Below, piece after piece: positions 27,208 to 62,647 of a stretch of DNA of 64,000 nt. How positions within the stretch are numbered: the stretch's first letter is position 1; the number at the start of each line of letters is the position of its first letter. A program made the position numbers and the translations under genes. The notes beneath the pieces are model-generated. The model was not told where the DNA came from. It saw only the letters and a program-made list of their open reading frames with translations, and did no database searches. This DNA comes from Candidatus Saccharimonadales bacterium (GTDB lineage: Bacteria > Patescibacteriota > Saccharimonadia > Saccharimonadales > EFPC-124): positions 690,659 to 754,658 of the forward strand of contig DATIBO010000006.1 of NCBI GenBank assembly GCA_035457485.1. Direction: 5' to 3'.

Positions 27208-27211
27208 TAGT

Positions 27212-29107: not shown

Positions 29108-29113
29108 CGCAGC

Positions 29114-29571: not shown

Positions 29572-29600
29572 AAAAAAGACTACAGTTCAATCTGTAGTCT
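29572..29600 (-). terminator. rho-independent terminator after tRNA-Gln
   Basis: The minus strand reads AGACTACAG-ATTGAA-CTGTAGTCT followed by TTTTTTG. Confidence 0.75.
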
Positions 29601-29614
29601 TTCTCATAATTTCA

Positions 29615-35871: not shown

Positions 35872-36005
35872 GTAAATATTTATAGGTTATAATAATGTAA
35901 ACCATCCTCGCTTACCGAAAGGGGAGTGGATGGATAAGTACAGTCACTCAATGTCAGCTGCCAACACCGCTATTAGCGCTAGATGTCAACTGGATGGAGG
36001 TAAAA

Positions 36006-36197
36006 ATGCCCCGCGATCCACGCTGGGGTAAGGGTCAGGACAACCACGTCCACGGAGCCGGCTGCTACGTTCAGAATTGTGGGATGCAGGAACACCAGCA
36101 TAGCGATTCCTGCTACAACCAAGACTACAGACTGAAGTGCGGCAGCACGATGCACCACCACTCCATGAGATGTAGGACCCTGAACTGCCCCAAGTGA
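36006..36197 (+). CDS. 63-aa Cys/His-rich small protein (putative metal-binding), GC-rich islet
   Basis: GGAGG SD 5 nt upstream of the ATG at 36006. The motif C-G-x3-H-x-H-x3-C occurs twice (CGMQEHQHSDSC, CGSTMHHHSMRC). Followed by its own terminator. Confidence 0.5.
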   Translation: MPRDPRWGKGQDNHVHGAGCYVQNCGMQEHQHSDSCYNQDYRLKCGSTMHHHSMRCRTLNCPK

Positions 36198-36202
36198 CTC
36201 CC

Positions 36203-36245
36203 GGCCCGCGTTTTGTTTGACACAAGCGCGGGCCATCTTTTATTG
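36203..36245 (+). terminator. terminator hairpin after the Cys/His gene
   Basis: GGCCCGCG (36203-36210) pairs with CGCGGGCC (36227-36234), followed by ATCTTTTATT. Confidence 0.6.
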
Positions 36246-45619: not shown

Positions 45620-46504
45620 TTAACTTTCATTCGCTGCCGCAGTTTTTAACTTAGCAGGTTTGGAATGATCTGACTCATGCTCAGAGTGCTCGCCATGACT
45701 ACTTGTAGCCATGTTTAGATAAGCAGTCGTGAGCATAACAAAAATATAAGCCTGAATAGCACTAAAGAAAAGCTCCAAGAAGTAAACAGGAACTGTAGCA
45801 GCCCATCCAAAGGCTCCAGCCAATTGCCCAATTACATGAAGCAGAACTTCGCCGGCATAAATAACACCAAATAAACGCATGCTTAATGTAATAATTCGAA
45901 TAAATTCTCCCATAACTTCGATCAACCCCATAAAAAGGTTGATCGGGTTGTACGGTTTGTTTGTAAAGTAATTTTTTAAATGACCTAAAATCCCGAGCTC
46001 TTTTAGCGCGTAAAACTGAACTAAGCCAATCGAGAGTACCGCTAAAGCAATGGTGCCATTAAGGTCAGTAGTGAATGCGCGAAGTAGCGAAACTTCGCCA
46101 TGTTCGGTGTTCACAACAATCGTACCGACTCCCGGGATTAGTCCAGAAAGGTTCGCCAGTAAGATAAAACAAAATAGGCTTAACAGAAACGGCAAATGTT
46201 TTAAAGCCTTTTTACGACTATTAAAGCCCTCTTCAGCTGTATTTAAGATAAATTCAGCAATAGTTTCTAATGTAAAACTAAACATACTGGTTGGTTTTAG
46301 GTGGCTTTTTTTAACAGCTGCAAGTAAAATCAACACAACGGCCGCACCCGTAATTACGCCGAATAACATCGAATTAGTAACATTAAAGCTACCGATACTA
46401 AAAATTGTCTGCGCAGCGAGCGGAACACCACCCTCTGCTCCAAAAAAAGTTAATGCATTAAACACGGGCAAATCCCTTGGAAGCATATTCAGCAATAGTG
46501 TCAA
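45620..46504 (-). CDS. atpB: Fo ATP synthase subunit a
   Basis: SMRLFGVIYAGE contains the conserved Arg motif. 5-6 TM helices. The start could be an internal Met. Confidence 0.9.
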   Translation of the reverse strand: MTLLLNMLPRDLPVFNALTFFGAEGGVPLAAQTIFSIGSFNVTNSMLFGVITGAAVVLILLAAVKKSHLKPTSMFSFTLETIAEFILNTAEEGFNSRKKALKHLPFLLSLFCFILLANLSGLIPGVGTIVVNTEHGEVSLLRAFTTDLNGTIALAVLSIGLVQFYALKELGILGHLKNYFTNKPYNPINLFMGLIEVMGEFIRIITLSMRLFGVIYAGEVLLHVIGQLAGAFGWAATVPVYFLELFFSAIQAYIFVMLTTAYLNMATSSHGEHSEHESDHSKPAKLKTAAANES

Positions 46505-46647
46505 ATGGCATTTTCATCAGTTACCCCCAGTATACCAAGGAATGATTTACTGTAAACCCCTCGGTACGTTTTAGTTTTACCGTTTTTTATTTTATAATAT
46601 ACAAACTGCAGTATGCAGAGGTAAGTACTCGAGGGCAGGAGGCTTAA

Positions 46648-47064
46648 ATGGTCAATCCGACCACGCTTGCTGGTTTGATCGACGAGCACGCGAACGCGCT
46701 GGCCAGTCAGGTGCGAGCCCACTACTTGTGGACAGCCCAACTCGGTCGGAAGTCGGCGGCAGCGTTTAAAACCGCGAACGTAGCCGTAACTAATCCGTTC
46801 GGGCTGACGATCATCATCGGTATGCAGACCAACGAGCCGCAGGAGGGTGGCAGCAATCCTGTGACACGCAAGTGGGCAACCCTGACCATCAATGGCGTTC
46901 AGGATCCAACATTGCGAGCCCAGGTCACCGCCATCCTGTCGGCGCTGGAAACCTACGGGGTTTTCAGCATAAGCGGGAGTACCGTTACCTTCGGTTACAA
47001 GATCGAGACAACCGATCACGCCGAAGCGGTCACTAAAGCTTTGAACGCCGCCAACCGACGCTAA
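46648..47064 (+). CDS. hypothetical protein, GC-rich islet gene 1
   Basis: 138 aa. AGGAGG SD. Third codon positions are mostly G/C in this frame. No motif recognised. Confidence 0.55.
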   Translation: MVNPTTLAGLIDEHANALASQVRAHYLWTAQLGRKSAAAFKTANVAVTNPFGLTIIIGMQTNEPQEGGSNPVTRKWATLTINGVQDPTLRAQVTAILSALETYGVFSISGSTVTFGYKIETTDHAEAVTKALNAANRR

Positions 47065-47077
47065 AGGCGGGAGAGAA

Positions 47078-47578
47078 ATGAAAATCGTTAACTGGCTTTT
47101 AGACCGGTTTGCTACGGCTAAGACATGGGAGGGTCTCGGGCGATTCTGCGTGGAGATCTCTCTGGAGCTGAACCTCTGGTCGAACGAGGTAGCCGAGTGG
47201 CAAGCTGACCAGGTCCGCCTGGGACAAGCCAAGATCAGCACGACCACGACTCCCGGTCTTCGACGTGAGATCAAAGGAGCCGGCCTCAGAGCGACTCTAT
47301 ACCTGTCGAACGAGATCCGACCGGCGAACATCAGAGGATTCATGCTCCTGAGATCACTGCGTTTCGCCGACAACGAGCAGCCGCGTGGCCTCAAGCGAGC
47401 CTACGAGAACTGGCGCCTCGACAAAGTGATCGCGATGATCACGAACGACACGTTTGTCGGGGTGGTTCGCGACGAACATAGGGCGATGCGGCCGATCGAG
47501 CTCGAGTACCGTAGTGAGGGTTTCTCGTCTGCAATGCGGGCGTTCTCACTAGGAGCACAGCGCATGCCGCGCTCCTAG
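47078..47578 (+). CDS. hypothetical protein, GC-rich islet gene 2
   Basis: 166 aa. GGGAGAG SD. 13 nt after gene 1. Followed by a 12-bp-stem hairpin at 47586-47618. Confidence 0.55.
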   Translation: MKIVNWLLDRFATAKTWEGLGRFCVEISLELNLWSNEVAEWQADQVRLGQAKISTTTTPGLRREIKGAGLRATLYLSNEIRPANIRGFMLLRSLRFADNEQPRGLKRAYENWRLDKVIAMITNDTFVGVVRDEHRAMRPIELEYRSEGFSSAMRAFSLGAQRMPRS

Positions 47579-47678
47579 CACAATTGGGTGCCGTTCCAGC
47601 ATGATTGGAGCGGCACCCGCGGGTACTTACCGTATTCCGAAATTATAATGTATACTTTAAATATTAAGGAGTTTAACT

Positions 47679-47951
47679 ATGACCCCAACAATTGTTATGT
47701 ACAGTAGTCCAACTTGCGCATATTGTCATTTGGCCGCTGAATATTTTGAAAAACTTGGCTTAAAATTCACCGATAAAGACATAAGCCAAGATAGAGAAGC
47801 CTTAGAGTTTATTATGGAAAAAGTCGGTCAAGCCGTTACTCCAGTCATTACTATTAACGATACAATCATTATAGGTTTCGATAAGCCAAAAATCGACGAA
47901 GCTCTAGAAGAAGCTAAAAAAGCGAAACACAGCACAAAAGAAGAAAAATAA
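47679..47951 (+). CDS. glutaredoxin-like protein (NrdH/YruB type)
   Basis: 90 aa. Active site CAYC at the N-terminus of a thioredoxin fold, and TPVITIND. Confidence 0.75.
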   Translation: MTPTIVMYSSPTCAYCHLAAEYFEKLGLKFTDKDISQDREALEFIMEKVGQAVTPVITINDTIIIGFDKPKIDEALEEAKKAKHSTKEEK

Positions 47952-48448
47952 TGGACAAAAGCAAGATCTGGTGGGTGGTCGGAATTGTTGGAGCAATTAT
48001 TCTAATAAGTCTTTGGGTTTTACTTTTCATGACCCAAGATCAACCGTCCGCAAATCAACAAGACACCACTAACAGCACAATCCAAACAGCCCAGCCTACG
48101 ACTCAGCCAGATCAAGCCATTACACCAGTGCAAGCCGGCACGTATCAAAACTACAGCGCCGAGACATTGGCCACATCCAAGGCTAAGACAAACTTAATCT
48201 TCTTTTACGCACCGTGGTGCCCACAGTGTCGCGCTCTTGAAAAATCAATTGAACAAAGTGGCGTCCCAGAAAACATAGCAATTTTTAAAGTAGACTACGA
48301 CACTGCCACCGAATTAAAGAAAAAATACGGCGTTACAATTCAAACCACAATTGTTCAAGTTAATCCAGATGGCAGTCTGATTAAAAAACATGTTGCGTAC
48401 GATAATCCGGCGTTAACATCAGTGCTAAATGCTCTGGGAATCGAATGA
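47951..48448 (+). CDS. membrane-anchored thioredoxin-fold protein
   Basis: N-terminal TM helix, Q/T/P linker, active site WCPQC. Confidence 0.75.
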   Translation: MDKSKIWWVVGIVGAIILISLWVLLFMTQDQPSANQQDTTNSTIQTAQPTTQPDQAITPVQAGTYQNYSAETLATSKAKTNLIFFYAPWCPQCRALEKSIEQSGVPENIAIFKVDYDTATELKKKYGVTIQTTIVQVNPDGSLIKKHVAYDNPALTSVLNALGIE

Positions 48449-49164
48449 TTCAGTTGATAATTTTGTCATTTGTAGCCGGGGTAATGACTGTTTTAGCACC
48501 CTGTATTTTGTCTTTTTTACCAGTAATCGTAGGTGGTTCCTTAGTTCAGAGCGAGCGCAAAATCGTAAAGCCATTCATAATCACTCTCAGCCTGGGCGCT
48601 TCGATCGTGATTTTTACTTTATTATTGAAATTCAGCACCAGTCTACTTAGCGTTCCAACCCAAGTCTGGCAAGTTGCATCTGGAGTTATTATTATTTCTC
48701 TGGGATTGATCATGCTGTGGCCAAAATTATGGGAGACTTTAGGCGCAAAATTAAACCTTACCGGCAATAAATTACTAGGCAAGGCAGGTAAGAAACGTGG
48801 TCTTTTAGGCGACATCCTAACAGGTGTGGCGCTTGGACCGGTTTTCGCAAGTTGCAGCCCAACCTACGCTTTTATTGTGGCGGCAGTTTTGCCGTCGACG
48901 TTCGCAGTTGGACTTACTTATTTAGTAGCTTATGCAGCCGGTTTGAGCGCTGTCTTGCTATTGATTTCTTTGCTGGGACAAAAATTAGTTACAAAACTAA
49001 ACTGGGCAAGCAACCCCAACGGGTGGTTTAAAAAGGCGATTGGTATAATTTTTATTCTTGTCGGAATTTTTATTGCAACAGGACTAGATCATAAACTACA
49101 AGCGTTTTTGGTGAGTCAAGGCTGGTACGATCCCTTTTCGGCATTTGAACAAAGTCTTTTATAA
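48445..49164 (+). CDS. ccdA: CcdA/DsbD-family thiol-disulfide electron transporter
   Basis: 239 aa, 6 TM helices. Conserved Cys residues in VLAPCIL and FASCSP. Confidence 0.8.
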   Translation: MIQLIILSFVAGVMTVLAPCILSFLPVIVGGSLVQSERKIVKPFIITLSLGASIVIFTLLLKFSTSLLSVPTQVWQVASGVIIISLGLIMLWPKLWETLGAKLNLTGNKLLGKAGKKRGLLGDILTGVALGPVFASCSPTYAFIVAAVLPSTFAVGLTYLVAYAAGLSAVLLLISLLGQKLVTKLNWASNPNGWFKKAIGIIFILVGIFIATGLDHKLQAFLVSQGWYDPFSAFEQSLL

Positions 49165-49171
49165 TACAACA

Positions 49172-49759
49172 ATGGCCCTAGAAACAGATAAAGAATTTAA
49201 GAATTACAAAACCAAACCCAGCGTTGTGGTAGTTTACACTGGCGACAGCAAAGGCAAAACCAGCGCTAGCATTGGCTTGATGTGTCGCGCCCTCGGCACA
49301 GATTGGCGTGTTGCTTTTGTGCAGTTTATTAAACACTGGGAAGTAGGCGAGCACAAGTTTTTCAACAAAATCATACCCGTTATGGGCGATCAATTAGTGT
49401 TCTACAAAGGTGGAAAAGGTTTTTATAACGCCGGAGCGCTCAGCGCAAAACAGGTGAGTAATGACGACCATAGGAACGCAGCGTTACAAACTTACGAATT
49501 CGCACTTAAAAGCGTAAAAAGTGGAGAATTTAACCTTGTAATTTGCGATGAGATCAACAACGCCGTAAAAGATGGCTTACTTACCGCAAAACATTTAGAA
49601 AAACTAATCGACGCGCGCCAGGCGAACACAAGTCTATGCCTAACAGGCAGAAATTTCCCTAAAGAATTATTACCAAAAACCGATATTGTTACAAACATGG
49701 TAAAAATAAAACATCATTTTGACGAAAAATACCTTGCAAACGAGGGCATAGACTATTAA
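49172..49759 (+). CDS. cobO: cob(I)yrinic acid a,c-diamide adenosyltransferase (CobA/CobO/BtuR family)
   Basis: Motifs VVVYTGDSKGKTSA, FVQFIK, LVICDEINNAV. ATG at 49172 preferred over 49145. Confidence 0.75.
   Translation: MALETDKEFKNYKTKPSVVVVYTGDSKGKTSASIGLMCRALGTDWRVAFVQFIKHWEVGEHKFFNKIIPVMGDQLVFYKGGKGFYNAGALSAKQVSNDDHRNAALQTYEFALKSVKSGEFNLVICDEINNAVKDGLLTAKHLEKLIDARQANTSLCLTGRNFPKELLPKTDIVTNMVKIKHHFDEKYLANEGIDY
49733..49758 (+). repeat. 26-bp direct repeat, copy 1 (the last codons of cobO)
   Basis: CTTGCAAACGAGGGCATAGACTATTA, identical to 50373-50398. Confidence 0.95.
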
Positions 49760-49801
49760 GATACTTTGTAAGTAGCTCACTGGGGGTTAGGTTGTGGCTA
49801 A

Positions 49802-50032
49802 ATGGCCAAGGCTGGCAAGGATCGCGTACGCCAGGCGGCAGCGGGACTCGGGATCATCGGCATGATCTTCGGGGCTGGCAGCACGAGCGGCGGCGTTCCG
49901 AAGAAGACCTTCGACGCGGGTTCCTCGCTGTACCGCAGCGGGAGGAGTCAGCAGCGACAGCAGCAGAGCTCACACCTGCGGAGCGGCACCGACAGCTCGA
50001 ACCGCCGGCGCGGTGGCAGTGGCCAGCGCTGA
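49802..50032 (+). CDS. 76-aa GC-rich ORF (one hydrophobic segment, S/R/Q-rich tail), possibly a gene fragment
   Basis: G/C-dominated third codon positions in this frame. Low-complexity product. Confidence 0.3.
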   Translation: MAKAGKDRVRQAAAGLGIIGMIFGAGSTSGGVPKKTFDAGSSLYRSGRSQQRQQQSSHLRSGTDSSNRRRGGSGQR

Positions 50033-50125
50033 TGGTACGAGGATCTGACGAAAGCCGGATCTGACAATCATCAAAACAGGGCTGCTCATAATCATTCGTG
50101 ATATTGAGCAGCCCTGCAGTTAGAC

Positions 50126-50344
50126 TTAAAAACCCAAAACATCTTTGATTGATTCCATAGCATCGCTGAATTTATAATCCACAACTAGCATAATCCCTGC
50201 GATTGCAATCCCCACCGCAGGGATTATAACAATCAACCAGTCCCATTTTTGCGCTAATATCTGACTAGCGACAAATATAATAGCAGCCAGAGCCATAACA
50301 ATAATCACACCGCCAAGAATTTTCTTAAAAATATTTTTGTTCAT
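50126..50344 (-). CDS. small two-TM membrane protein
   Basis: 72 aa, two hydrophobic helices, AT-rich native-like composition. Confidence 0.45.
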   Translation of the reverse strand: MNKNIFKKILGGVIIVMALAAIIFVASQILAQKWDWLIVIIPAVGIAIAGIMLVVDYKFSDAMESIKDVLGF

Positions 50345-50372
50345 TCTGACATTCTAAGATTTATTAATAACT

Positions 50373-50398
50373 CTTGCAAACGAGGGCATAGACTATTA
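50373..50398 (+). repeat. 26-bp direct repeat, copy 2 (orphan cobO 3' end)
   Basis: Identical to 49733-49758. Here it is followed by G (TAG) instead of A (TAA). Confidence 0.95.
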
Positions 50399-50500
50399 GT
50401 ATGTTTGTGGGGAGTTCCGCTTCGGCGTGAGCTCTCCACCAGCTATTATTCGCGAGTAAAAACAATTGGGCGCTCACGGCGTCTTTTTTAAAGGAGTAGT

Positions 50501-50776
50501 ATGGCAGTAGAATCAGCTAGCCGTCCCTGGGAAATGGACGCGCCTAAAGATGCGGTGGCAGAATCAATGAGTGGTGTAAATTACGGCTACGAATGGGAGA
50601 AGCCGGGAGCTTGGGGTAGAGAGCACAACATCCCTGCCGAAGTTATGGCACAGATTGAGGTTTCGGCTCCATTTTTTGTGACATCTAAGATGGCTAAAAA
50701 AGCGATCACAATGGCAATCGGCCATCAACCGCAAATGCGCCCACTCGACCTAGAATCCGCTACAACTACTAGCTAA
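50501..50776 (+). CDS. hypothetical 91-aa protein
   Basis: AGGAG SD. No motif recognised. Confidence 0.4.
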   Translation: MAVESASRPWEMDAPKDAVAESMSGVNYGYEWEKPGAWGREHNIPAEVMAQIEVSAPFFVTSKMAKKAITMAIGHQPQMRPLDLESATTTS

Positions 50777-52019
50777 TCTTTTTGTATAGATCAATAATCT
50801 TTTTAGCTTGAGCTTTTTCGGATAACCTGCCAGCAATAATTTTACCCTTCGCAGACATGCTTTTTTGCAACTTGTCATCATTTAAGATTGCTGCAATCTT
50901 GTTGGCCATATCCTTGGCGTTGTTTTTACAGTAAAAGCCATTCTCGCCATTTTTAACGACCTCGCTCACTAACGGATCGCACATTACAATTGGCACGCCC
51001 GCCAATGCAGCCTCGTGTAAGACTAGCCCCTGAGTGTCACTGAGCGACGGGAAAGCAAAGACCTTTGCAATACTTAGCGGAATTCCGAGTTTTTCGCGTG
51101 GCATTCTGCCGGTAAAAATTATTCTAGCATTATTAGATTTCTTAGCATTTCTCTCGAGCGTCTCGCGGTAATCAAAATCACCTACAAAAATCAGCTTAGC
51201 ATTTGGACGCTTTTTGATTAAATCAGGCATCATGTCGATCAACAGATCTAAATTTTTTTCCTGACTTAAGCGCCCTACATAAATTACAACCTCGTCAGTT
51301 GGAGAAATTTTATACTTTTTGCAAAATTCATCTCGCTCTGTCTGGTTTGCCTTAGGCAATGGATCTACACCTGTAGGGATCAAATAAGTTCGATAATTAA
51401 ATTCATCTTTTTGCCAAGATGCCAACTGGCGCGCGCTCTTTTTGGAATGCACGATCACCGTATTGCAACTACTGTGAAGGATTGTCATTAAGTCACGAAT
51501 CAGGCTTTTATTCCATTTGCCAATACCGAGGCGCGGCCTACTGGATCGATAAAGCTCAAATAACTGATCTTTGGTCATGGGGATTGCCAGTGGCAAAAGC
51601 AAAAGCGCGGTAATCAAAACTGGCAACGCAAAAGGATAGTGTTCAACGTACTCAAACAGATCGGTGCAATACTCACTGACAACCGGAATTTTTAGCTCAT
51701 GCGCTGCGTAAAGCCCCATTAAGCCAACCTGGCCGGGTGTCAAAAAGTGAATCACATCAAGATCAAGCTTTTTAATATCATTTAAAAGCATTGGCGGAAA
51801 AAACAGCGGCGTGTTTAAATCGTTGAAAAGACCGCCCTTAAAAGTGGGAAATTTGTAAACATGAACGTCGGCTGTCTGTTCGATTCGTAAGCCTTCGCCC
51901 GGCGCAAACACAAACACCTCATGACCCAATAGGGTAAAGTTATGGCGCAAGATATCTACAACCGACACTACCCCGTTGATTGACGGATGGTATGTATCGG
52001 TAAAAATTCCGATTTTCAT
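50769..52019 (-). CDS. glycosyltransferase family 4
   Basis: 416 aa. N-terminus KIGIFTDTYHPSINGV, C-terminus FPSLSDTQGLVLHEAALAGVPIV (GT-B EX7E region). Confidence 0.8.
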   Translation of the reverse strand: MKIGIFTDTYHPSINGVVSVVDILRHNFTLLGHEVFVFAPGEGLRIEQTADVHVYKFPTFKGGLFNDLNTPLFFPPMLLNDIKKLDLDVIHFLTPGQVGLMGLYAAHELKIPVVSEYCTDLFEYVEHYPFALPVLITALLLLPLAIPMTKDQLFELYRSSRPRLGIGKWNKSLIRDLMTILHSSCNTVIVHSKKSARQLASWQKDEFNYRTYLIPTGVDPLPKANQTERDEFCKKYKISPTDEVVIYVGRLSQEKNLDLLIDMMPDLIKKRPNAKLIFVGDFDYRETLERNAKKSNNARIIFTGRMPREKLGIPLSIAKVFAFPSLSDTQGLVLHEAALAGVPIVMCDPLVSEVVKNGENGFYCKNNAKDMANKIAAILNDDKLQKSMSAKGKIIAGRLSEKAQAKKIIDLYKKIS

Positions 52020-52101
52020 TTACTCTTAGTATAGCATTCGTCAGGTGGTTTAAGAAGCCGAAACTCCCCAAACCGCTAACGGTTTGCTAGAATATAATCA
52101 A

Positions 52102-53139
52102 ATGAAAAAACCAAAACCAGTAAAATTTACTAAGCAAAAATGGGTTAGAGTTGTTGCAGTTATTTTGGCAATTTTAGGCACAATTTTTGTAATTTTCGCA
52201 TTGTTGTATGCGTTTGTCTTTACTCCTGTAAAAAACCCAAGATATGGCGTAAGTTTCGTCAAAGAACGAGCCGAAGAGTATGATCTTGACTGGCGCGAAA
52301 ATTACCTGGCGCTTTTAGATGATCTAAAAATACGCAATTTTAGGCTAGTTAGTTACTGGAGTGCACACGAGCCAAAACGCGGTGAGTTCGATTTTAGCGC
52401 ACTAGATTGGCAAATGGACGAAGCAGCAAAGCGCGGCGCAAAAGTGAGTTTGTCTATAGGTATGCGTCAGCCGCGCTGGCCAGAATGCCACGAACCCGGT
52501 TGGGCACATTTACTAGGCGGCCACGAGTGGAAGCAAGCTCTTTATGCCTACATGGAAATCGTGGTTAACCGGTACAAAAATCACCCTGCACTCGAAAGTT
52601 ATCAACTAGAAAACGAAGCGGTAAACAATTGGTTTGGAACTTGCCGCGAGCCCGATCGAGAGCGTTTAATAGAAGAGTTTAATTTTGTAAAACAATGGGA
52701 TCCAAACCACCCTATTTACATGAGTCTAAGCGACCAGCATGGCATACCGGTAAACCAACCGGTGCCAGACAAATACGGCTACTCAGTTTATCGCTGGCTC
52801 TGGAACGACAAAACCGTGCCAAATGGTTATATTTTGTACCCGACTCCAATTTGGTATCACCGATTACGAGCTGAAGTAATTAAACTAACCAAAAATCGCG
52901 ACATTTTTATCCACGAATTACAGATGGAGCCGTGGGGACCCGAAGAAACTAAGAACTTAAGCATCGAAGAACAAAACCGATCCATGAGCGTAGACCAAAT
53001 TCCTAAGTCGTTTGATTTTGGGCGACGCATCGGCAGTCCGGACATTAGTCTTTGGGGCGGCGAATGGTGGTACTGGCGCAAAGTAAACGGGGATGCTAGT
53101 ATCTGGGAGAAAGTTCGCGAACAATTAAACGCCCCATGA
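52102..53139 (+). CDS. membrane-anchored putative glycoside hydrolase (TIM-barrel, GH5/GH42-like)
   Basis: N-terminal TM helix. YQLENEAVN (an NE acid/base-type motif) and HELQMEPW (a candidate nucleophile Glu). Confidence 0.45.
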   Translation: MKKPKPVKFTKQKWVRVVAVILAILGTIFVIFALLYAFVFTPVKNPRYGVSFVKERAEEYDLDWRENYLALLDDLKIRNFRLVSYWSAHEPKRGEFDFSALDWQMDEAAKRGAKVSLSIGMRQPRWPECHEPGWAHLLGGHEWKQALYAYMEIVVNRYKNHPALESYQLENEAVNNWFGTCREPDRERLIEEFNFVKQWDPNHPIYMSLSDQHGIPVNQPVPDKYGYSVYRWLWNDKTVPNGYILYPTPIWYHRLRAEVIKLTKNRDIFIHELQMEPWGPEETKNLSIEEQNRSMSVDQIPKSFDFGRRIGSPDISLWGGEWWYWRKVNGDASIWEKVREQLNAP

Positions 53140-53966
53140 AAAATCAGATCAACATCTTTGGAAGCACTGTCAAGTATTGGGTTTTTAATGCCGATAAGCC
53201 TAAGACCTTGGTTATGATCCACGGTTTTAGGGGGACGCATCATGGCTTGCAGCTGATAATCGACCGTTTGCCGGACTTTAAAATAATCATCCCTGATCTC
53301 CCTGGCTTTGGCGAATCGACTCCGCTTAAAAACAAGCCACATACAATAAACGGTTACTGCGACTTTTTAAAAGAATTTATCAAACGAGTAGCGCCCGAAC
53401 AGCCCTTTTTATTGGGTCACTCGTTTGGATCAATTATAGTCAGCCATTTTGCAGCAAAAAACCCAAACGCAATCAGCAAATTGATTTTGATTAACGCTAT
53501 CGCCGAACCCCCGCTAAAGGGCCCGCAAAAAGTAGCCACTAAGATTGCAGTTTTATATTATTGGCTAGGGCAAAAACTACCACAAAAAATGGGCGAAAAA
53601 ATGCTACGAAGCAAAATCGTCATATTTGGCGCCAGTTTATTGATGACAACTACCAAAGATAAAGCGCTGCGCAAATTTATCCACGAAAATCATTTAAAAT
53701 ACTTTAGTACTTTTCAAGATCGCGACACTTTGCGTGAAGCTTTTGAAGCCAGCACAAAAAATACTGCGAGCGACAAAGCTGACGTCATTAAGGTTCCAAC
53801 ACTAATGATCGCAGGCGAGCTTGATAAAATTGCACCCTTAAGAAGTCAGCACAACTTAGTAAAAATAATTCCTGACGCCCAGTTGGTTGTTTTTAAAGCT
53901 GGGCACCTGATTCATCACGAGGCGCCAACCGAAGCTGCTAGCTCGATACGAAACTTCTTAACTTAG
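53136..53966 (+). CDS. alpha/beta hydrolase
   Basis: Motifs HGFRGTHH, GHSFGS nucleophile elbow, C-terminal GHLIHHE. Confidence 0.75.
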   Translation: MKNQINIFGSTVKYWVFNADKPKTLVMIHGFRGTHHGLQLIIDRLPDFKIIIPDLPGFGESTPLKNKPHTINGYCDFLKEFIKRVAPEQPFLLGHSFGSIIVSHFAAKNPNAISKLILINAIAEPPLKGPQKVATKIAVLYYWLGQKLPQKMGEKMLRSKIVIFGASLLMTTTKDKALRKFIHENHLKYFSTFQDRDTLREAFEASTKNTASDKADVIKVPTLMIAGELDKIAPLRSQHNLVKIIPDAQLVVFKAGHLIHHEAPTEAASSIRNFLT

Positions 53967-55164
53967 CCGAAAACGGTTTACGTGGCTTGTAGTTTTTTAA
54001 AACCTCGGCGTAAATTTCTTCGAATCGAGTTAGGGTAAATTCCAGATCATGAGTTTTGGCAATTCTAAGTGCCTGAACCCCCATATTAGATTGAAGTTTT
54101 TCGTCTTTTAAGATCGCTATGATTTTTGTAGACATACTTTTAGAATCATCAGGTTTACACAAATAACCATTCAGGCCATCTTGGCAAAGTTCGTGCAGGG
54201 CACCGGCGTTAACTGCAACCGATGGCAAACCGGTCGCCATAGCCTCAAGCAAAGTTAAGCACTGAAGTTCGGCAGGTGAGGGCATTACGAAAACAGTTCC
54301 GCATCTGTAAAGTGGCGCCAAGTCTTCGTCGTCAACTCGGCCAGTCATTGTTACATTACTAAGTAGGTCGAATTCGCGAATAAGCTCGCGCAGGTTTTCG
54401 GCATCATTACCATGTCCAACAATCACCAAGTGTGCATCTATCTCGGCCAAAACTTTTGGCATAGCACGCACTAAGGTGCTAATGTGTTTTTCTCCGTCAA
54501 CGCGACCAACATATAAAATTATTGGTTTATTTTTTGGGATTCCGAAGTAACTCTTAAACTGCGCCTTTACCTCGCCAGGCGAAAAGCGACTCAAATCAAT
54601 TCCGTTAGAAACTGCCTCGAGCGGCATCTTGAACTCTTTTTCATCTAAAAACATTTTAACGGCAGCCTGGGTTGGCATAGTTATATAGTCAACGTTACTA
54701 TGAAAACGCAAACCGTACTCTTTAACTAAACTTGCAAGCGGTTCAGCAAAGGGCGCCATCAACCTCATTTGCTTAAGATTGTCTTGGACGTTCTCGGGCA
54801 TCGCGTGATTAGTGGCGACGACAGGAATATTAAGTTTTCGAGCTGAATTACGAGCCGCTAAACCCAGTCCGAGCGGAGTTTGGATATGAACGAGGTCAGG
54901 TTTAAAGTCCGTAATTATTTTTTTAACCTCTGGCTGAGGATTCAAAACCATGCGGTAATTGGGAAAAAACGGGAAGGGGATAGAAGTTGTTCGCGCAATC
55001 TGGTAGTTGTCGTCAGTTTCGACAAATTTTTTACCATCCTGCGAAGGTGCGATCACCAAAACTTCATGGCCACGCGCTGACAGACCCTTAGCTAAGTTTC
55101 GGGTAAAAGTTGCTATTCCGTTAATCGCCGGCCAGTATAAATCGCATGCAAGAACAATACGCAT
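53938..55164 (-). CDS. glycosyltransferase family 4
   Basis: 408 aa. N-terminus MRIVLACDLYWPAINGIA, C-terminus MPSPAELQCLTLLEAMATGLPSV. Confidence 0.8.
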   Translation of the reverse strand: MRIVLACDLYWPAINGIATFTRNLAKGLSARGHEVLVIAPSQDGKKFVETDDNYQIARTTSIPFPFFPNYRMVLNPQPEVKKIITDFKPDLVHIQTPLGLGLAARNSARKLNIPVVATNHAMPENVQDNLKQMRLMAPFAEPLASLVKEYGLRFHSNVDYITMPTQAAVKMFLDEKEFKMPLEAVSNGIDLSRFSPGEVKAQFKSYFGIPKNKPIILYVGRVDGEKHISTLVRAMPKVLAEIDAHLVIVGHGNDAENLRELIREFDLLSNVTMTGRVDDEDLAPLYRCGTVFVMPSPAELQCLTLLEAMATGLPSVAVNAGALHELCQDGLNGYLCKPDDSKSMSTKIIAILKDEKLQSNMGVQALRIAKTHDLEFTLTRFEEIYAEVLKNYKPRKPFSAKLRSFVSS

Positions 55165-55199
55165 ATCTTGTATTGTATATTATAATATAGCCAAAGCGT

Positions 55200-56384
55200 A
55201 TGAAAATAGCCTTAGTTACAGACTTTTATTTACCTAGCCTTGGGGGTTTACAGACTTCCACGGTTAATCAGCGTAAAGCGCTCGAAAACAGCGGTAACGA
55301 GGTTTTTGTATTTACAGCAAAGTACGATAAAGCAGAGCCCACTGACGATAGTCACGTTATTAGAGTGACCAGTAGGAATATGCCGGGCCTAGGTTTCCCG
55401 GTAGTATCGCCATCGGAAAAGTTAAAAAGCTTTTTGTTAAAAGAATTTTCAAAGCGCAAAATTGATGTTATTCATATTCAAACCGAATTTGGTCTAGCGC
55501 AGACCGCGATGTGGGCAGGCAACGAGCTGGGAATTCCTGTTTTTTATACTTCACACACTTACTCCTGGAAAACCGCTTATCCGATTCCGCGACTCCAAGC
55601 AAAAGTTATTCAAATTTTTTACAGATTTTTGTTTGGAACAGACCTAAAAATGGTCGACAGCATTCCGGGCGAGGACAGTGCTTCGCGCGCCCTGCGTAGT
55701 ATCCGAACAGTGGTTAACAAGCGAGCTGACGTTTTAATTTGCCCATCAAAGCATATGTTCGAAGCACTAAATCCTGAGCGCGACCAAAAACCTGGTTTTG
55801 TGGTTCCTAACCCGGTTACAGCAATCAGTAAGCTCGCACCAAGACCTCTACCAGAAGTGGTTCGGTTTGTTTGGCCATCGCGCATAGAGCCAGAGAAGAG
55901 GATTTTAGAATTTATCGAAGCAGTTTTAATTGCAAACAAGTTAACTAAAATACCGTTTTTTGTCGATATCATTGGCGAGGGTGCGCTACTCGAAAAAGCC
56001 AAGCTATTGGCCGAGGGAGCAAAAAATATAAAATTCCATGGACGTTTAACGCAAGATCAAACGGTCACAATTATGGATAAAGACAGCTTAGTCGTGATCT
56101 CATCAAGCGGCTACGACAACCAGCCAATGATTATCGCCGAAGCACTGAGCAGAGACAGGGGAGTGCTTTACTGCGACCCAAACTTAAACGACAGCCTTAA
56201 AAAAGCTGGGTATTTGTCTGGCGACCAACCAAAGCAACTTGCACGAGCGATTAAAGAATTAGTTGAAGATCCAAGCAAAATCAAAGCCCTAGCTGAGGCC
56301 GCGAAAGTCAATAAAGATCAGTTTTCAGAGCAAACTTACAGCCAAACAATCACTGATCTTTATAAAAAGTTCGCCTCTAAATAA
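55200..56384 (+). CDS. glycosyltransferase family 4
   Basis: 394 aa. N-terminus MKIALVTDFYLPSLGGLQ, C-terminal GT-B domain. Confidence 0.75.
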   Translation: MKIALVTDFYLPSLGGLQTSTVNQRKALENSGNEVFVFTAKYDKAEPTDDSHVIRVTSRNMPGLGFPVVSPSEKLKSFLLKEFSKRKIDVIHIQTEFGLAQTAMWAGNELGIPVFYTSHTYSWKTAYPIPRLQAKVIQIFYRFLFGTDLKMVDSIPGEDSASRALRSIRTVVNKRADVLICPSKHMFEALNPERDQKPGFVVPNPVTAISKLAPRPLPEVVRFVWPSRIEPEKRILEFIEAVLIANKLTKIPFFVDIIGEGALLEKAKLLAEGAKNIKFHGRLTQDQTVTIMDKDSLVVISSSGYDNQPMIIAEALSRDRGVLYCDPNLNDSLKKAGYLSGDQPKQLARAIKELVEDPSKIKALAEAAKVNKDQFSEQTYSQTITDLYKKFASK

Positions 56385-56467
56385 CCTATACTTTTTGTGC
56401 AAAATATTATATAGTATGTAAGCTCTAAGAGTACCTTTTAGCTTTGTCCTACATTGGAGGTGGCTCC

Positions 56468-57418
56468 ATGCTTTGGAGCACAGCCCAGAGAACAATTCTG
56501 GGCATGCAACTCGCCGGACTTGGCGTCGTGGGACTATACCACGCGTGCATGATGTTCGGGCGAGTAAACCCGGTTGGGAGGATCGGGGTAGCTGTCGGTG
56601 CGGTCATCTGTCTGCTTTTCGTCAGTAACGGCGTAGGCATGGCGGACTTCGTTACGCCGACGCGGCCGACGATCTTCCGATCGTCCAACGGACACGCGGA
56701 TCTATTCTTCGTGCCGGGCTACAACGGCAACTCGCAGTCCCTGCACGAGATCCTGGCCCCCTGGACCCGACCCTACGCGACCGCTGGTATCCAGTACGCG
56801 CCTGGTCGCTTCGACGGAGCGCAGGCCGAGCTGGCTGTGCGAGACTTCATCCGAGAACACGGACCCGAGGTCGTCTACAGTGAGTCGATGGGTGCGCCAA
56901 TCGTTCTGGGAGCTCTGCGCCGCGGAGCAACGATCGACACCTGGGTCATCAACGCTGGCCCGGCGAGCCCTTCCAACGTGCGGCCGTGGCAGACGATCAT
57001 CGGATCGATCATGCACGGTGGCCCCGGCCTCACCGCACTGATGCAGCTCGGTCAGAGGGCTTCGATCAACTGGATAACCACCGACGCCAGTCGCATGCCG
57101 GCCAGCCAGGCCGCATACGAACGAAGCACTCATCTGACGTCGCCAATGGCGTTCGGCATGATGGAGTACCTGCGCAGCTTCGAACCGGTTCAACCGGGCG
57201 AGCTCGTCGGCAAGGTTCGCCGGGTGATCTTCGTCAGCGCTCCAGGGGAGTACGACGACCGGATCAACACCGCGAATGCAAGTGGTCGCTGGATGCTGGC
57301 ATCCGGTACGATGTATTCGCGCCGGATCCTCAGCAAGGTTCCGCGTCACGGTCACTGCATGACACCGGAGTACCCAGAAGGCGTCGGAACTGTGCTGTAC
57401 GAACTGCTCGAAAGCTAA
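56468..57418 (+). CDS. membrane-anchored alpha/beta-hydrolase-like protein, GC-rich islet
   Basis: GGAGGTGG SD before the ATG at 56468. Two N-terminal TM helices, YSESMGA nucleophile-elbow-like motif, C-terminal HGHC. A 10-bp-stem hairpin lies at 57424-57463. Confidence 0.55.
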   Translation: MLWSTAQRTILGMQLAGLGVVGLYHACMMFGRVNPVGRIGVAVGAVICLLFVSNGVGMADFVTPTRPTIFRSSNGHADLFFVPGYNGNSQSLHEILAPWTRPYATAGIQYAPGRFDGAQAELAVRDFIREHGPEVVYSESMGAPIVLGALRRGATIDTWVINAGPASPSNVRPWQTIIGSIMHGGPGLTALMQLGQRASINWITTDASRMPASQAAYERSTHLTSPMAFGMMEYLRSFEPVQPGELVGKVRRVIFVSAPGEYDDRINTANASGRWMLASGTMYSRRILSKVPRHGHCMTPEYPEGVGTVLYELLES

Positions 57419-57621
57419 AAGGCTGCGCCCGCAAACCCCATAAAAAGGGTCACTGCGGGCGCAAAAGCCCATGAAATTATTTAACAGATCATAATTATTT
57501 GCTAACAGAGGTGTATTTATGTACATAATCATTGCTTTTTTAACATAAACATGTTATAGTATTTATCACGTTGGAGGGTAACCCTACTCTTCGACAGAAA
57601 CTTCCCATCTGAGGAGACATT

Positions 57622-58155
57622 GTGAACCGGATCATCCGCAACGTTGGCATGTTGCTGGCCTCGGCTGCCCTCGTGGCCGCCTGCGCCGACACCGCCAACG
57701 AGCCCGTCCAGTCGACCCCCGTGGTCGCTACGCCGTACGCCGCACTCAACCCGAGCCCGGCGCCGGCAGGCATCGAGAACTGCGAGAACATCCCCCTGCA
57801 GAGCAGCAACTTCCACAACGGAGAGTGGCTGCAGATGGGAGCTAGCAACCTGACGTTCTCGATCGACGCCACGATTACCCCCAAAGGCAAGAACAGCTTC
57901 ATCATCACCTTCGACTTCAACGGTCACCGTGACGAGCAGTTCGCCGCATGGTTCGGCAAGGTCGACACCGCGAACCCCCGCAACATCAGCTGGAAGCTCT
58001 ACAGCGCCCAGCTGATGGAGCAGGGCGTGACGGTCGACAACGGCCGCTACACGATCTTCCAGGTCTTCGCGGATCCGTCCGCGTGCCCGGTCCCCATGAT
58101 CGGCGGGCTCGTCATTGACGAGCTCAAGGCCGCGGGTCAGTGGCCCACAAACTAA
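57622..58155 (+). CDS. lipoprotein of unknown function, GC-rich islet
   Basis: GTG start after GAGGAG. Signal peptide with lipobox LVAAC. An 11-bp perfect-stem hairpin lies at 58169-58204. Confidence 0.6.
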   Translation: MNRIIRNVGMLLASAALVAACADTANEPVQSTPVVATPYAALNPSPAPAGIENCENIPLQSSNFHNGEWLQMGASNLTFSIDATITPKGKNSFIITFDFNGHRDEQFAAWFGKVDTANPRNISWKLYSAQLMEQGVTVDNGRYTIFQVFADPSACPVPMIGGLVIDELKAAGQWPTN

Positions 58156-58225
58156 GTCTCCTCGTTGGCCGCGAGCGCCCTGGCACCCGCCTAGGCGCTC
58201 GCGGAAACGAGCCTAAAATTATTCA

Positions 58226-58250
58226 CCTCGGTATCGAGGATTTTTTTATT
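58226..58250 (+). terminator. rho-independent terminator
   Basis: CCTCG-GTAT-CGAGG followed by ATTTTTTTATTTT. Confidence 0.65.
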
Positions 58251-58270
58251 TTAAGATATACTTACATCAG

Positions 58271-58741
58271 ATGAAGAAGAAAGCTAAATCAACCGCCAAT
58301 ATAATTGACAACCGCCGCGCTCGGTTTGATTACGCATTGAGCGACGAATTTAGCGTGGGCATAGTTTTAACCGGCCCAGAGGTTAAAGCTGCCCGCAACA
58401 ATCGTGTAACCCTAAAAGGTAGTTACGTAAACGTAAAAGATGGCGAACTTTGGCTTACTAACGCTAGTTTTTCGGTAATTCACACCGAGCCAGGCAAATC
58501 AACAACCGCCGTCGACACCCGTCCGCGCAAGTTACTAGCAAAAAAACGCGAGATTGCACAAATCATTGCCGCAAAGAATCAAGGCAGTACAGTAGTGCCT
58601 TTAAGTATGAGCACAAAAACAAACTTCATAAAACTTAAAATCGCAATTGGTAAGGGTAAAAAACAGTACGACAAACGCCAAACGATTAAAAAACGCGACA
58701 CCGAGCGAGAAAACAAACGAGTTTTAAGATCACTTGGATAG
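58271..58741 (+). CDS. smpB: SsrA-binding protein
   Basis: 156 aa. Motifs NRRARFDY, GPEVKA, GKGKKQYDKR. Confidence 0.9.
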   Translation: MKKKAKSTANIIDNRRARFDYALSDEFSVGIVLTGPEVKAARNNRVTLKGSYVNVKDGELWLTNASFSVIHTEPGKSTTAVDTRPRKLLAKKREIAQIIAAKNQGSTVVPLSMSTKTNFIKLKIAIGKGKKQYDKRQTIKKRDTERENKRVLRSLG

Positions 58742-59773
58742 AGCAGTTAAAATAGCCTGGCCCAAAATGTGCTGATTGTAAACAACACCATGCCTTTCGC
58801 GGGTTGGCAAAGTAGCAGCGTTCAGGTTGGTGAAAGCACCTAATTTATCAGTTGCATATTCGGTTCTAGCTACTGTGTCGCCGTCGGTAAAAAACATGTA
58901 CGAGGGCACGTTAGGGCAACGTTTATTAAAAACACTAAGATCTTCAAAAAAGCTTCCAGCTGCCAAGCCCTGTAGTAATGCCAAGTTGTTGCTAGCCTGG
59001 CGGATCATTGCACCGACACCGGCAACTTCGGTTTTTCTAAAAACACCTTGCCGATGATTGTTTAAGTAGGGAGACATGGCAGCACCCTCACTGGCAAAGC
59101 ATTGCGTTAGGTCGATGATTCCGCGACCTTGTTTCATATTGCCAGGCACGCCCATGATAAGTCCGCCGACTTGTTTGCCTGATTCGACCGCAAGGTTCGC
59201 TAAAACCGGTACCATGCCGCCGCCAAACGAGACACCCATAATATGAACTTTTTCTAGGCCGGGGATAAATTCTTCGGTAGTTTCGAGGTATTTTTCGGCA
59301 ATTGGTCTAAAATTGCCCATTTTTACCTGTCTGACCTGGCTAGAGTTTAGCCTAACTCCTGCGTCTGCAACCGGTGCCGAAAACATGATAACCGGTAAAA
59401 CTCTGCCAAACCTATCACGGCAATCGGCGAACTTGGCGATTCTACGGGTCATCTCGCCAATCAAAACCATGGTTTTTAGGTCTGTTGCAAATGGTCCCGG
59501 CACCAAAATTGCCTCAGTATCCGAGTTAACTTCTTGGCGATCCGGATCAGTAAACAGCGCGTATTTAACACCTGTTCTTGGATTACGGTCAATACCTCTA
59601 CTAAGCCTCTCGATATACCTATATTTACCGTTAGGTTCCTTGCCGGCAGCACGCGCCTCGGCCTCCATTTGGTTCACAATACCATCAACGGCTTTAACAA
59701 CCTCGGGCGAGGGTTCAAACACACTTAAAGCTTGCTCTTTGTAAAAAGAGACTTCGGATTCTGGCCGTGACAT
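58730..59773 (-). CDS. alpha/beta-hydrolase-like hypothetical protein
   Basis: 347 aa. GVSFGGG nucleophile-elbow motif. Otherwise unrecognised. Confidence 0.45.
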   Translation of the reverse strand: MSRPESEVSFYKEQALSVFEPSPEVVKAVDGIVNQMEAEARAAGKEPNGKYRYIERLSRGIDRNPRTGVKYALFTDPDRQEVNSDTEAILVPGPFATDLKTMVLIGEMTRRIAKFADCRDRFGRVLPVIMFSAPVADAGVRLNSSQVRQVKMGNFRPIAEKYLETTEEFIPGLEKVHIMGVSFGGGMVPVLANLAVESGKQVGGLIMGVPGNMKQGRGIIDLTQCFASEGAAMSPYLNNHRQGVFRKTEVAGVGAMIRQASNNLALLQGLAAGSFFEDLSVFNKRCPNVPSYMFFTDGDTVARTEYATDKLGAFTNLNAATLPTRERHGVVYNQHILGQAILTALSK

Positions 59774-59810
59774 AAATCTGCAAGGATTCTACGCCCGAAA
59801 GACTACAAAA

Positions 59811-60524: not shown

Positions 60525-60571
60525 GAGATTAAGTGTAGCAAACTTTACCCAAAACGGGTTAAAATAGCAAT

Positions 60572-62636: not shown

Positions 62637-62647
62637 AATTTGTCATA

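What the first reader, a model, noticed from the sequence alone, without database searches (positions are those of the whole stretch)
46620..47631. Two-gene GC-rich cassette inserted between the ATP synthase operon and the thiol-redox operon, bracketed by inverted 9-mers
**Seen in sequence**
- The divergent intergenic region between atpB (minus) and the glutaredoxin-like gene (plus) is occupied by about 1 kb of GC-rich DNA.
- It carries two + strand ORFs of 138 and 166 aa, 13 nt apart, both with strong SDs (AGGAGG, GGGAGAG).
- They are followed by the hairpin GGGTGCCGTTCC/GGAGCGGCACCC (47586-47618).
- The composition step coincides with GGTAAGTAC at 46620-46628 and its exact reverse complement GTACTTACC at 47623-47631.
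- Neither protein has a motif I recognise.

**Inference**
- This is a discrete insertion, possibly with terminal inverted repeats.
- It sits where it could be read from, or interfere with, the atp promoter region.
- A two-gene module of unknown function (toxin/antitoxin-like or phage-derived) is possible but unsupported.
Basis: seen in the sequence. Interest (0 to 1): 0.55.

Follow-up and report, generated by a model that had tools for sequence, protein, structure and literature searches.

The report
Foreign two-gene cassette with inverted ends
About 1 kb of foreign, GC-rich DNA carrying two genes with no detectable relatives anywhere sits between the ATP-synthase and thiol-redox operons of an uncultured Saccharibacteria genome, and its ends look like those of a transposase-less transposable cassette; the insertion is real, the kind is familiar, and what the two genes do is unknown.

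Summary
Window 46620-47631 is a sharp GC island (0.56-0.60 against 0.36-0.44) in the divergent atpB/glutaredoxin intergenic region of a Ca. Saccharimonadales MAG. It carries two + strand ORFs (138 and 166 aa) with coding-type GC3 (0.70) and Shine-Dalgarno sites, followed by a very stable hairpin. The inverted 9-mers extend to a 16-nt terminal inverted repeat (14/16), flanked by a 9-nt imperfect direct repeat (7/9). In 40,000 random pairs of real window sequence, 23 reached 14/16 and none also had such a direct repeat. An independent Logan assembly is 100% identical across both junctions, so it is not a chimera. About 35 related Saccharibacteria loci keep the atpB/thiol-redox neighbourhood and none has the cassette. 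ORF2 has no relative among 1.84 billion representatives under full HMMER. ORF1 has none in word-indexed, Pfam, PHROG, NCBIfam, PADLOC, PDB, phage or plasmid searches. Structure models were too poor to use. Best reading: a horizontally acquired, promoterless, transposase-less cassette like a mobile insertion cassette (MIC), cargo function unknown. No cognate IS or second copy was found, so MIC membership is incomplete. At least four other GC-rich orphan islets lie in the same window, but they lack such ends.

The parts
46611..46619 (.). Left copy of the candidate 9-bp target-site duplication (GTATGCAGA)
   Evidence: It matches 47632-47640 at 7 of 9 positions, directly abutting the inverted repeat. 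P is about 0.002 at a fixed register. None of 40,000 random window pairs combines a 14/16 or better inverted repeat with such a direct repeat.
46620..46635 (+). Left terminal inverted repeat (GGTAAGTACTCGAGGG)
   Evidence: 14/16 complementary to 47616-47631. Chance rates: 2/2000 shuffles and 23/40,000 real-sequence pairs. It coincides with the GC step.
46638..46643 (+). Shine-Dalgarno AGGAGG of ORF1, only 2 nt inside the left terminus, leaving no room for an internal promoter
   Evidence: Read directly from the sequence.
46648..47064 (+). ORF1, 138 aa, pI 9.2, orphan protein (GenBank HSE29766.1, locus tag VLA77_04245)
   Evidence: ORF listing. GC3 0.70 with a coding-type pattern. Only a self hit in 5.8 billion clusters. 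No family, PDB, phage or plasmid match. Accession.
47070..47075 (+). Shine-Dalgarno-like GGAGAG of ORF2
   Evidence: Read directly from the sequence.
47078..47578 (+). ORF2, 166 aa, pI 10.1, strict orphan protein (GenBank HSE29767.1, locus tag VLA77_04250)
   Evidence: ORF listing. GC3 0.71. Only a self hit by full phmmer against 1.84 billion representatives and in the word-indexed search. No family or PDB match.
47585..47619 (+). GC-rich 15-bp stem-loop after ORF2, with no U tract; its 3' arm overlaps the right terminus by 4 nt. Presumed terminator or stabiliser of a high-GC-donor type.
   Evidence: -33.9 kcal/mol, z = -4.5, 0 of 200 shuffles fold as well.
47616..47631 (-). Right terminal inverted repeat (GGTAAGTACCCGCGGG, read on the - strand)
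47632..47640 (.). Right copy of the candidate 9-bp target-site duplication (GTATTCCGA)
46593..46598 (+). Native TATAAT box 22 nt upstream of the left terminus. It is the only candidate promoter element able to drive the promoterless cassette (inferred).
   Evidence: Seen in the sequence. The consensus scan did not call it because no good -35 hexamer accompanies it.
46529..46556 (-). Sigma-70-like promoter for atpB (TTTACA-16-TATACT), outside the cassette and left intact by it
47644..47649 (+). TATAAT box between the right terminus and the glutaredoxin gene. Any matching -35 position would fall inside the cassette end.
   Evidence: Seen in the sequence.

Best explanation
The element is a horizontally acquired, non-autonomous transposable cassette of the mobile insertion cassette (MIC) type.

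It is 1,012 bp long and bounded by 16-bp imperfect inverted repeats. Between them it carries two co-oriented passenger genes and a 3' stem-loop, and it has no transposase.

It most likely entered the divergent atpB/glutaredoxin intergenic region by cut-and-paste or replicative transposition. The transposase would have been supplied in trans by an insertion sequence with related ends, either in a donor or elsewhere in this genome. The insertion duplicated 9 bp of target, which has since diverged at 2 positions.

The cassette has no room for its own promoter, because the Shine-Dalgarno site begins 2 nt after the left end. The two genes must therefore be transcribed from the native TATAAT 22 nt upstream, and the stem-loop limits or stabilises that transcript before the glutaredoxin operon.

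Shown: foreign composition, coding signal, non-random inverted ends, absence from relatives, reproducibility in a second assembly, and orphan status of the cargo.

Inferred: transposition in trans, the promoter used, and the hairpin's role.

Cargo function is not determined. My best guess, at about 0.15-0.2, is an accessory pair from the mobilome of a bacterium of roughly 58-60% GC, such as an addiction, defence or anti-defence pair. Nothing tested here supports a specific activity.
For: - Sharp GC step at both ends.
- GC3 is 0.70-0.71 in both ORFs against 0.30-0.42 in neighbouring genes. Both ORFs have the same composition, which fits a single acquisition.
- The 16-nt inverted repeat (14/16) sits exactly at the composition boundaries. 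Chance rates are 2/2000 shuffles and 23/40,000 real-sequence pairs.
- An abutting 9-nt direct repeat matches at 7/9, P about 0.002. The joint pattern occurs in 0 of 40,000 control pairs.
- There is no transposase or other domain in either ORF.
- The size and layout match the published MIC definition: two inverted repeats, no transposase, one or more CDS, about 0.7-3 kb (PMC6199540).
- The cassette is absent from 14 genome loci and about 20 metagenome loci that retain the atpB/grx/trx/ccdA/cobO neighbourhood.
- The independent Logan assembly of SRR25158331 is 100% identical over 17,533 bp, including both junctions.
Against: - No second copy of the terminus and no IS with related ends was found in the 64-kb window or in 1.38 Mb of fetched loci. 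The feature that makes a MIC mobile is therefore not demonstrated.
- The direct repeat is imperfect (7/9) and its length was chosen after looking at the sequence.
- The closest relatives are only 53-69% identical in AtpB, so no true empty site was recovered. The direct empty-site scan found nothing.
- The four other GC-rich islets in the window have no significant terminal repeats. This genome evidently takes up foreign cassettes by some route that needs no inverted ends.
- The termini could not be matched to a known IS family. IS66-type GTAA ends with an 8-bp duplication do not fit the register (flanks read).
Confidence: 0.5

Rival explanations
1. Foreign DNA taken up by natural competence, which Patescibacteria commonly encode, or delivered by transduction, was integrated by illegitimate recombination into a tolerant intergenic site. 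On this reading the inverted ends are either a coincidence or a feature of the donor transcript unit, and they are not transposon ends.
For: - At least four other GC-rich orphan islets in the same 64 kb sit in intergenic DNA without any significant terminal inverted or direct repeats.
- The atpB/grx gap is a variable spot in relatives, ranging from 83 bp to 2.2 kb with different genes in it.
- No cognate IS was found.
- Competence, conjugation and transduction are the routes proposed for HGT in Patescibacteria (PMC12455944).
Against: - A 14/16 inverted repeat exactly at both composition boundaries is rare by chance (23/40,000). Even after allowing for five islets tested it remains rare.
- No control pair added an abutting 7/9 direct repeat.
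Confidence: 0.3
2. The inverted ends function in RNA. They form a 5'-3' closing stem of the cassette transcript, for stability or processing, and were inherited with the donor operon. They have no role in DNA mobility.
For: Both the MFE and the centroid fold of the 1,022-nt transcript pair the two termini as a 12-bp closing stem.
Against: - Any 14/16 complement would be paired by a folding program, so this is not independent evidence.
- The transcript would have to read through a -33.9 kcal/mol hairpin to include the 3' arm.
- This reading does not explain the flanking direct repeat.
- No Rfam family matches.
Confidence: 0.1
3. The genes are native, fast-evolving and lineage-specific, and were not acquired horizontally.
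For: They are orphans, and small CPR genomes do hold many lineage-specific genes.
Against: - The GC step of 15-20 points has sharp edges, and GC3 is 0.70 against 0.30-0.42 in neighbours.
- The cassette is absent from about 35 related loci with conserved neighbours.
- The GC-rich terminator without a U tract is unlike the neighbouring AT-rich DNA.
Confidence: 0.04
4. The cassette is an assembly chimera or contaminating sequence in the MAG.
For: The source is a metagenome-assembled genome, and the composition is foreign.
Against: - A second assembly made with a different pipeline (Logan, SRR25158331) is 100% identical over 17.5 kb, including both junctions.
- The sequence returns to the exact syntenic neighbour on each side.
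- The cassette fits precisely between intact genes and promoters.
- Caveat: both assemblies probably use the same reads.
Confidence: 0.03
5. It is an integron-type or other site-specific recombination gene cassette: promoterless ORFs followed by a 3' recombination hairpin.
For: The layout is compact and promoterless, ends in a stem-loop, and depends on an external promoter.
Against: - No RYYYAAC or GTTRRRY core sites are present in or around the hairpin (read).
- There is no Rfam hit.
- No integrase appears among the genes annotated over 18 kb downstream or around the tRNA-Gln.
- The islets are dispersed and do not form an array.
Confidence: 0.03

Closest known systems
Mobile insertion cassettes (MICs), e.g. 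MIC231 of Bacillus cereus (Chen et al. 1999; De Palmenaer et al. 2004, as summarised in PMC6199540)
   Same: Two terminal inverted repeats with no transposase between them, one or more passenger CDS, and a size within 0.7-3 kb (1,012 bp here). A short target duplication is also present, imperfect in this case.
   Different: No IS with related ends and no second copy were found, so trans-mobilisation is undemonstrated. The termini match no IS family I could identify. The host is a Patescibacterium and the cargo is two strict orphan genes. The element is promoterless and extremely compact.
MITEs / TIMEs (miniature inverted-repeat transposable elements)
   Same: Non-autonomous, bounded by inverted repeats, with a target duplication and dependent on a transposase in trans.
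   Different: MITEs are typically shorter than about 300-500 bp, non-coding and multicopy. This element is 1 kb, codes for two proteins and is single-copy in everything searched.
Integron gene cassettes
   Same: Promoterless compact ORF(s) followed by an imperfect palindrome, expressed from an outside promoter.
   Different: No attC core sites, no integrase nearby, no array, and inverted repeats at BOTH ends, which integron cassettes lack.
Horizontally acquired genomic islets in Patescibacteria (PMC12455944)
   Same: Foreign composition, accessory content, and insertion into a small streamlined genome.
   Different: Those described are larger islands with recognisable cargo such as restriction-modification systems. 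This one is a 1-kb unit with defined inverted termini and orphan cargo.
Type II toxin-antitoxin pairs
   Same: Two small adjacent co-oriented genes 13 nt apart on apparently mobile DNA.
   Different: No toxin or antitoxin domain was detected in Pfam, NCBIfam or PADLOC. Both proteins are basic (pI 9.2 and 10.1), unlike the usual acidic antitoxin and basic toxin. No structural support could be obtained.

Membership tests
Mobile insertion cassette (MIC) | Terminal inverted repeats at both ends | tested here: met
   16 nt, 14/16, at the composition boundaries. Chance rates are 2/2000 shuffles and 23/40,000 real-sequence pairs.
Mobile insertion cassette (MIC) | No transposase gene between the repeats | tested here: met
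   The only ORFs are 138 and 166 aa. They have no Pfam, NCBIfam, PHROG or PADLOC match.
Mobile insertion cassette (MIC) | One or more passenger CDS; size about 0.7-3 kb | tested here: met
   Two ORFs with coding-type GC3. The element is 1,012 bp. The definition is from PMC6199540.
Mobile insertion cassette (MIC) | Target-site duplication flanking the repeats | tested here: inconclusive
   GTATGCAGA and GTATTCCGA match at 7/9, abutting the ends, P about 0.002 at a fixed register. The repeat is imperfect and its length was chosen post hoc.
Mobile insertion cassette (MIC) | Ends related to those of an autonomous IS whose transposase mobilises it in trans; other copies exist | tested here: not met
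   There is no other copy of the terminus in the window (3 or fewer mismatches) or in 1.38 Mb of fetched loci. The remaining roughly 825 kb of the source genome and ISfinder could not be searched, so this is 'not found' and not 'absent'.
IS66-family-derived element | Ends beginning 5'-GTAA/GTGA with an 8-bp target duplication | tested here: not met
   The ends contain GTAAG from position 2. If the element starts at GTAAG, the 8-bp flanks ATGCAGAG and CGTATTCC do not match (read). The IS66 example ends and 8-bp repeat are from PMC12898284.
Integron gene cassette | attC site with RYYYAAC ... GTTRRRY cores at the 3' end | tested here: not met
   No such cores occur in 47570-47640 and there is no Rfam match.
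Integron gene cassette | Adjacent intI integrase and attI, with cassettes in an array | tested here: not met
   No integrase appears among the annotated genes of L156 or near the tRNA-Gln. The islets are dispersed.
Type II toxin-antitoxin module | Recognisable toxin and/or antitoxin domain | tested here: not met
   Pfam, NCBIfam and PADLOC gave nothing, even at E <= 10.
Type II toxin-antitoxin module | Toxicity of one product neutralised by the other | not testable with these tools
   This requires expression experiments.

The most novel reading that the evidence does not exclude
The cassette may be the best-preserved example of a genome-wide population of small, promoterless, GC-rich orphan gene cassettes. 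At least five lie in this 64 kb, each with a Shine-Dalgarno site, ORF(s) and a GC-rich hairpin, and each sits just downstream of a native -10 box. On this reading a Saccharimonadales lineage captures them into intergenic DNA by an undescribed insertion mechanism that recognises GTAAGTA-type ends. That heptamer is three-fold over-represented, and four of its six intergenic copies sit at islet edges reading inward. This would amount to a CPR-specific system for sampling genes from hosts or their mobilome.
Probability: 0.07. Interest if true: 0.75.

Novelty: new member of a known kind. Interest (0 to 1): 0.36.

Why it matters
- Transposable elements and the routes by which ultra-small, host-dependent Patescibacteria gain genes are poorly documented. 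A cassette with inverted ends and no transposase would show that classical transposition in trans operates in, or delivers DNA into, these streamlined genomes.
- The cargo is two proteins with no relative among about 15 billion predicted proteins. Together with at least four similar islets nearby, this marks the genome as a sink for genes from an unsampled, higher-GC gene pool, possibly the host's mobilome.
- The cassette lies between a promoter region and a thiol-redox operon, so it may alter that operon's expression.
- None of this bears on a long-standing open question, and the kind of element is already known.

Tried and rejected
1. The flanking promoter region might be duplicated on both sides (TTACCGT..TTATAAT..ATAC). 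The local alignment scored no better than 398 of 1000 shuffles, so this was rejected. The only shared word is the TATAAT box.
2. The ends might be of IS66 type (GTAA, recalled from memory). The register gives no 8-bp duplication, and the published IS66 ends differ, so this was rejected.
3. All islets might share one terminus. The 16-mer occurs only at the cassette. The other islets have no significant inverted repeats or direct repeats. The GTAAGTA coincidence is about p 0.05 once restricted to intergenic sites. It is kept only as something noticed.
4. ORF1 gave a tblastn hit to Gordonia phage Phendrix (31% identity, E = 0.3). The alignment runs across the stop codon between genes 69 and 70, so it is a chance hit.
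5. Structure was tried. AlphaFold2 single-sequence models had pLDDT 46.8 and 36.5. Foldseek against PDB gave a best E of 0.11 and TM of 0.37 or less. These are unusable.
6. phmmer against PDB gave only E > 1.
7. The cassette DNA against plasmids in distant mode gave no match. Viral contigs held no relative of either protein.
8. An empty-site pattern (left flank, 0-30 nt, right flank) was scanned across the metagenomes and gave 0 hits.
9. Closer relatives were sought through atpB in genomes and metagenomes. The best was 69% identical, so no strain-level comparison was possible.
10. The antisense 297-aa ORF (46501-47394) lacks the GC3 pattern and runs out of the island into the start of atpB. 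It was rejected as spurious.
11. Exact-sequence context look-ups for ORF1 and ORF2 failed. The context was recovered through the islet-3a protein instead.

Full report
**What is there.**
- Window 46620-47631 is a sharply bounded GC-rich block. GC in 200-nt windows is 0.56-0.60, against 0.35-0.44 on either side and 0.448 for the window as a whole.
- It lies in the divergent intergenic region between atpB (45620-46504, - strand; PF00119) and a glutaredoxin / thioredoxin / DsbD-CcdA / CobO gene string on the + strand (Pfam).
- It holds two + strand ORFs: ORF1 at 46648-47064 (138 aa) and ORF2 at 47078-47578 (166 aa), 13 nt apart. Each is preceded by a Shine-Dalgarno-like motif.
- Both ORFs show the GC1 > GC2 < GC3 signature of real coding sequence, with GC3 of 0.70 and 0.71. 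Neighbouring native genes have GC3 of 0.30-0.42. The long antisense ORF lacks the signature and runs out of the island.
- ORF2 is followed by a 15-bp GC-rich stem-loop at 47585-47619 (-33.9 kcal/mol, z = -4.5) with no U tract after it.

**The ends.**
They extend to a 16-nt inverted repeat with 14 of 16 matches, at 46620-46635 and 47616-47631.
- When the two 50-nt boundary windows are shuffled, 2 of 2000 trials reach 14/16 and 7 of 2000 reach a perfect 9-mer.
- In a stricter control using real sequence, 23 of 40,000 random window pairs 0.3-2.5 kb apart reach 14/16.
- Immediately outside the two arms lie GTATGCAGA and GTATTCCGA, which match at 7 of 9 positions (P about 0.002 at a fixed register).
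- None of the 40,000 control pairs combines a 14/16 or better inverted repeat with such an abutting direct repeat.
- The anatomy is therefore direct repeat, inverted terminus, SD-ORF1, SD-ORF2, hairpin, inverted terminus, direct repeat.
- The element is very compact. The first Shine-Dalgarno site starts 2 nt after the left terminus and the hairpin overlaps the right terminus. There is no room for an internal promoter.

**It is real, not an assembly artefact.**
- The proteins are annotated in GenBank as HSE29766.1 and HSE29767.1 (VLA77_04245 and VLA77_04250) of a Candidatus Saccharimonadales MAG on an 889,392-bp contig.
- An independent Logan assembly of run SRR25158331 (contig 103800, 23.6 kb) was retrieved through the neighbouring islet protein. 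It is 100% identical to window 46468-64000, including both cassette junctions.
- The sequence on each side of the cassette is exactly the syntenic neighbour expected from relatives.

**It is an insertion specific to this lineage.**
- Fourteen Saccharibacteria genome loci (AtpB 53-65% identical) and about twenty metagenome loci (up to 69%) keep atpB next to the same thiol-redox and cobO genes in divergent orientation. None encodes ORF1, ORF2 or any other islet protein.
- The gap at this position is variable in relatives, from 83 bp to 2.2 kb, and is sometimes occupied by unrelated membrane proteins. The site evidently tolerates insertions.
- No close relative exists in the collections. A pattern that could only match an empty site found nothing in the metagenomes. 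The true empty site was therefore not recovered.

**The cargo.**
- ORF2 has no relative other than itself among 1.84 billion cluster representatives scanned by full phmmer, or in the word-indexed search of 5.8 billion clusters.
- ORF1 has only itself in the word-indexed search.
- Neither protein matches Pfam, PHROGs, PADLOC or NCBIfam, even at E <= 10. Neither matches PDB sequences or viral contigs.
- ORF1 has no plasmid match. Its only phage match (E = 0.3) crosses a stop codon between two phage genes and is spurious.
- With no homologues to align, the AlphaFold2 models were poor (pLDDT 46.8 and 36.5), and Foldseek returned nothing meaningful.
- Both proteins are basic and soluble-looking (pI 9.2 and 10.1). 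Their function cannot be assigned.

**Mechanism.**
- The best-supported reading is a non-autonomous transposable cassette of the MIC type. A MIC is two inverted repeats with no transposase between them, flanking passenger CDS, about 0.7-3 kb, and mobilised in trans by an IS with related ends (definition in PMC6199540).
- Four structural criteria are met and the target duplication is suggestive. The criterion that confers mobility is not met. No related IS and no second copy were found in the window or in 1.38 Mb of fetched loci. The rest of the source genome could not be searched.
- The IS66-type reading of the GTAAG ends fails on register.
- The main rival is integration of imported DNA by illegitimate recombination. 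Its strongest support is that the same 64 kb contains at least four other GC-rich orphan islets that lack significant terminal repeats.
- An RNA role for the inverted ends, as a 12-bp closing stem in both the MFE and centroid folds, is possible but is not independent evidence.

**Expression context (inferred).**
- The atpB promoter-like site (46556->46529, - strand) lies outside the cassette and is untouched.
- The cassette points toward the glutaredoxin operon. It sits 22 nt downstream of a native TATAAT (46593-46598) and 12 nt upstream of another (47644-47649).
- It is therefore probably transcribed from the upstream native promoter.

**Verdict.**
- This is a genuine, discrete, horizontally acquired two-gene cassette with non-random inverted termini.
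- It is most likely a MIC-like element (confidence 0.5) carrying two strict orphan genes of unknown function.
- It is a new member of a known kind and of moderate interest.
- The more interesting lead is the multiplicity of GC-rich orphan islets in this small genome.

Noticed in passing
window 35900-36240: A further small GC-rich islet (GC about 0.56) lies in an intergenic gap. It has a GGAGG Shine-Dalgarno site, a 63-aa Cys/His-rich ORF (36006-36197; 6 Cys, pI 8.6) and a GC-rich hairpin. It sits directly after a TATAAT box followed by GTAAAC.
   Followed up: partly
window 49770-50070: A GC-rich islet (GC up to 0.67) lies between cobO and a convergent small membrane-protein gene. It holds a 76-aa very basic (pI 12), low-complexity ORF (49802-50032) that the Logan gene caller did not call. 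Its left edge reads TTGTAAGTAGCTC, resembling the cassette terminus.
   Followed up: partly
window 56444-57418 and 57622-58155: Two adjacent GC-rich islets are separated by about 110 nt of AT-rich spacer that contains a TATAGT box. The first encodes a 324-aa protein with a SESMG motif; it is an orphan in 5.8 billion clusters, and its start is called differently as 259, 316 or 324 aa. The second encodes a 177-aa lipoprotein-like protein with GC3 of 0.90. Each is followed by a GC-rich hairpin. Neither has a Pfam or plasmid match, and the different GC3 values suggest different donors.
   Followed up: partly
whole window; sites 46621(+), 47630(-), 49768(+), 58265(-): The heptamer GTAAGTA occurs 18 times against 6.2 +/- 2.4 expected. 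Only 6 copies are intergenic, and 4 of those sit at islet edges, all reading inward. Once the cassette pair is excluded and the test is restricted to intergenic DNA, this is only about p 0.05.
   Followed up: partly
L001 3761-5950; L005 5265-5909; L012 5137-5829 (atpB-upstream gap in relatives): The atpB/glutaredoxin gap is a variable spot across Saccharibacteria. L005 and L001 carry a membrane-anchored protein of about 215 aa there. L012 carries a 230-aa polytopic membrane protein that looks VKOR-like by eye. L001 has two extra genes. None was examined further.
   Followed up: no
window 25927-29689: A defence-like cluster lies next to tRNA-Gln (29615-29689). It consists of an OLD-family nuclease (AAA_15 plus OLD-like TOPRIM, 631 aa), a DUF2130 protein (435 aa) and a 119-aa protein with no match. 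No recombinase is present.
   Followed up: partly
window 46606-46618: A small palindrome, CTGCAGTATGCAG, directly abuts the left end of the cassette and overlaps the candidate target duplication. The scan called it a weak terminator-like site on the - strand. It could have been the insertion target.
   Followed up: no
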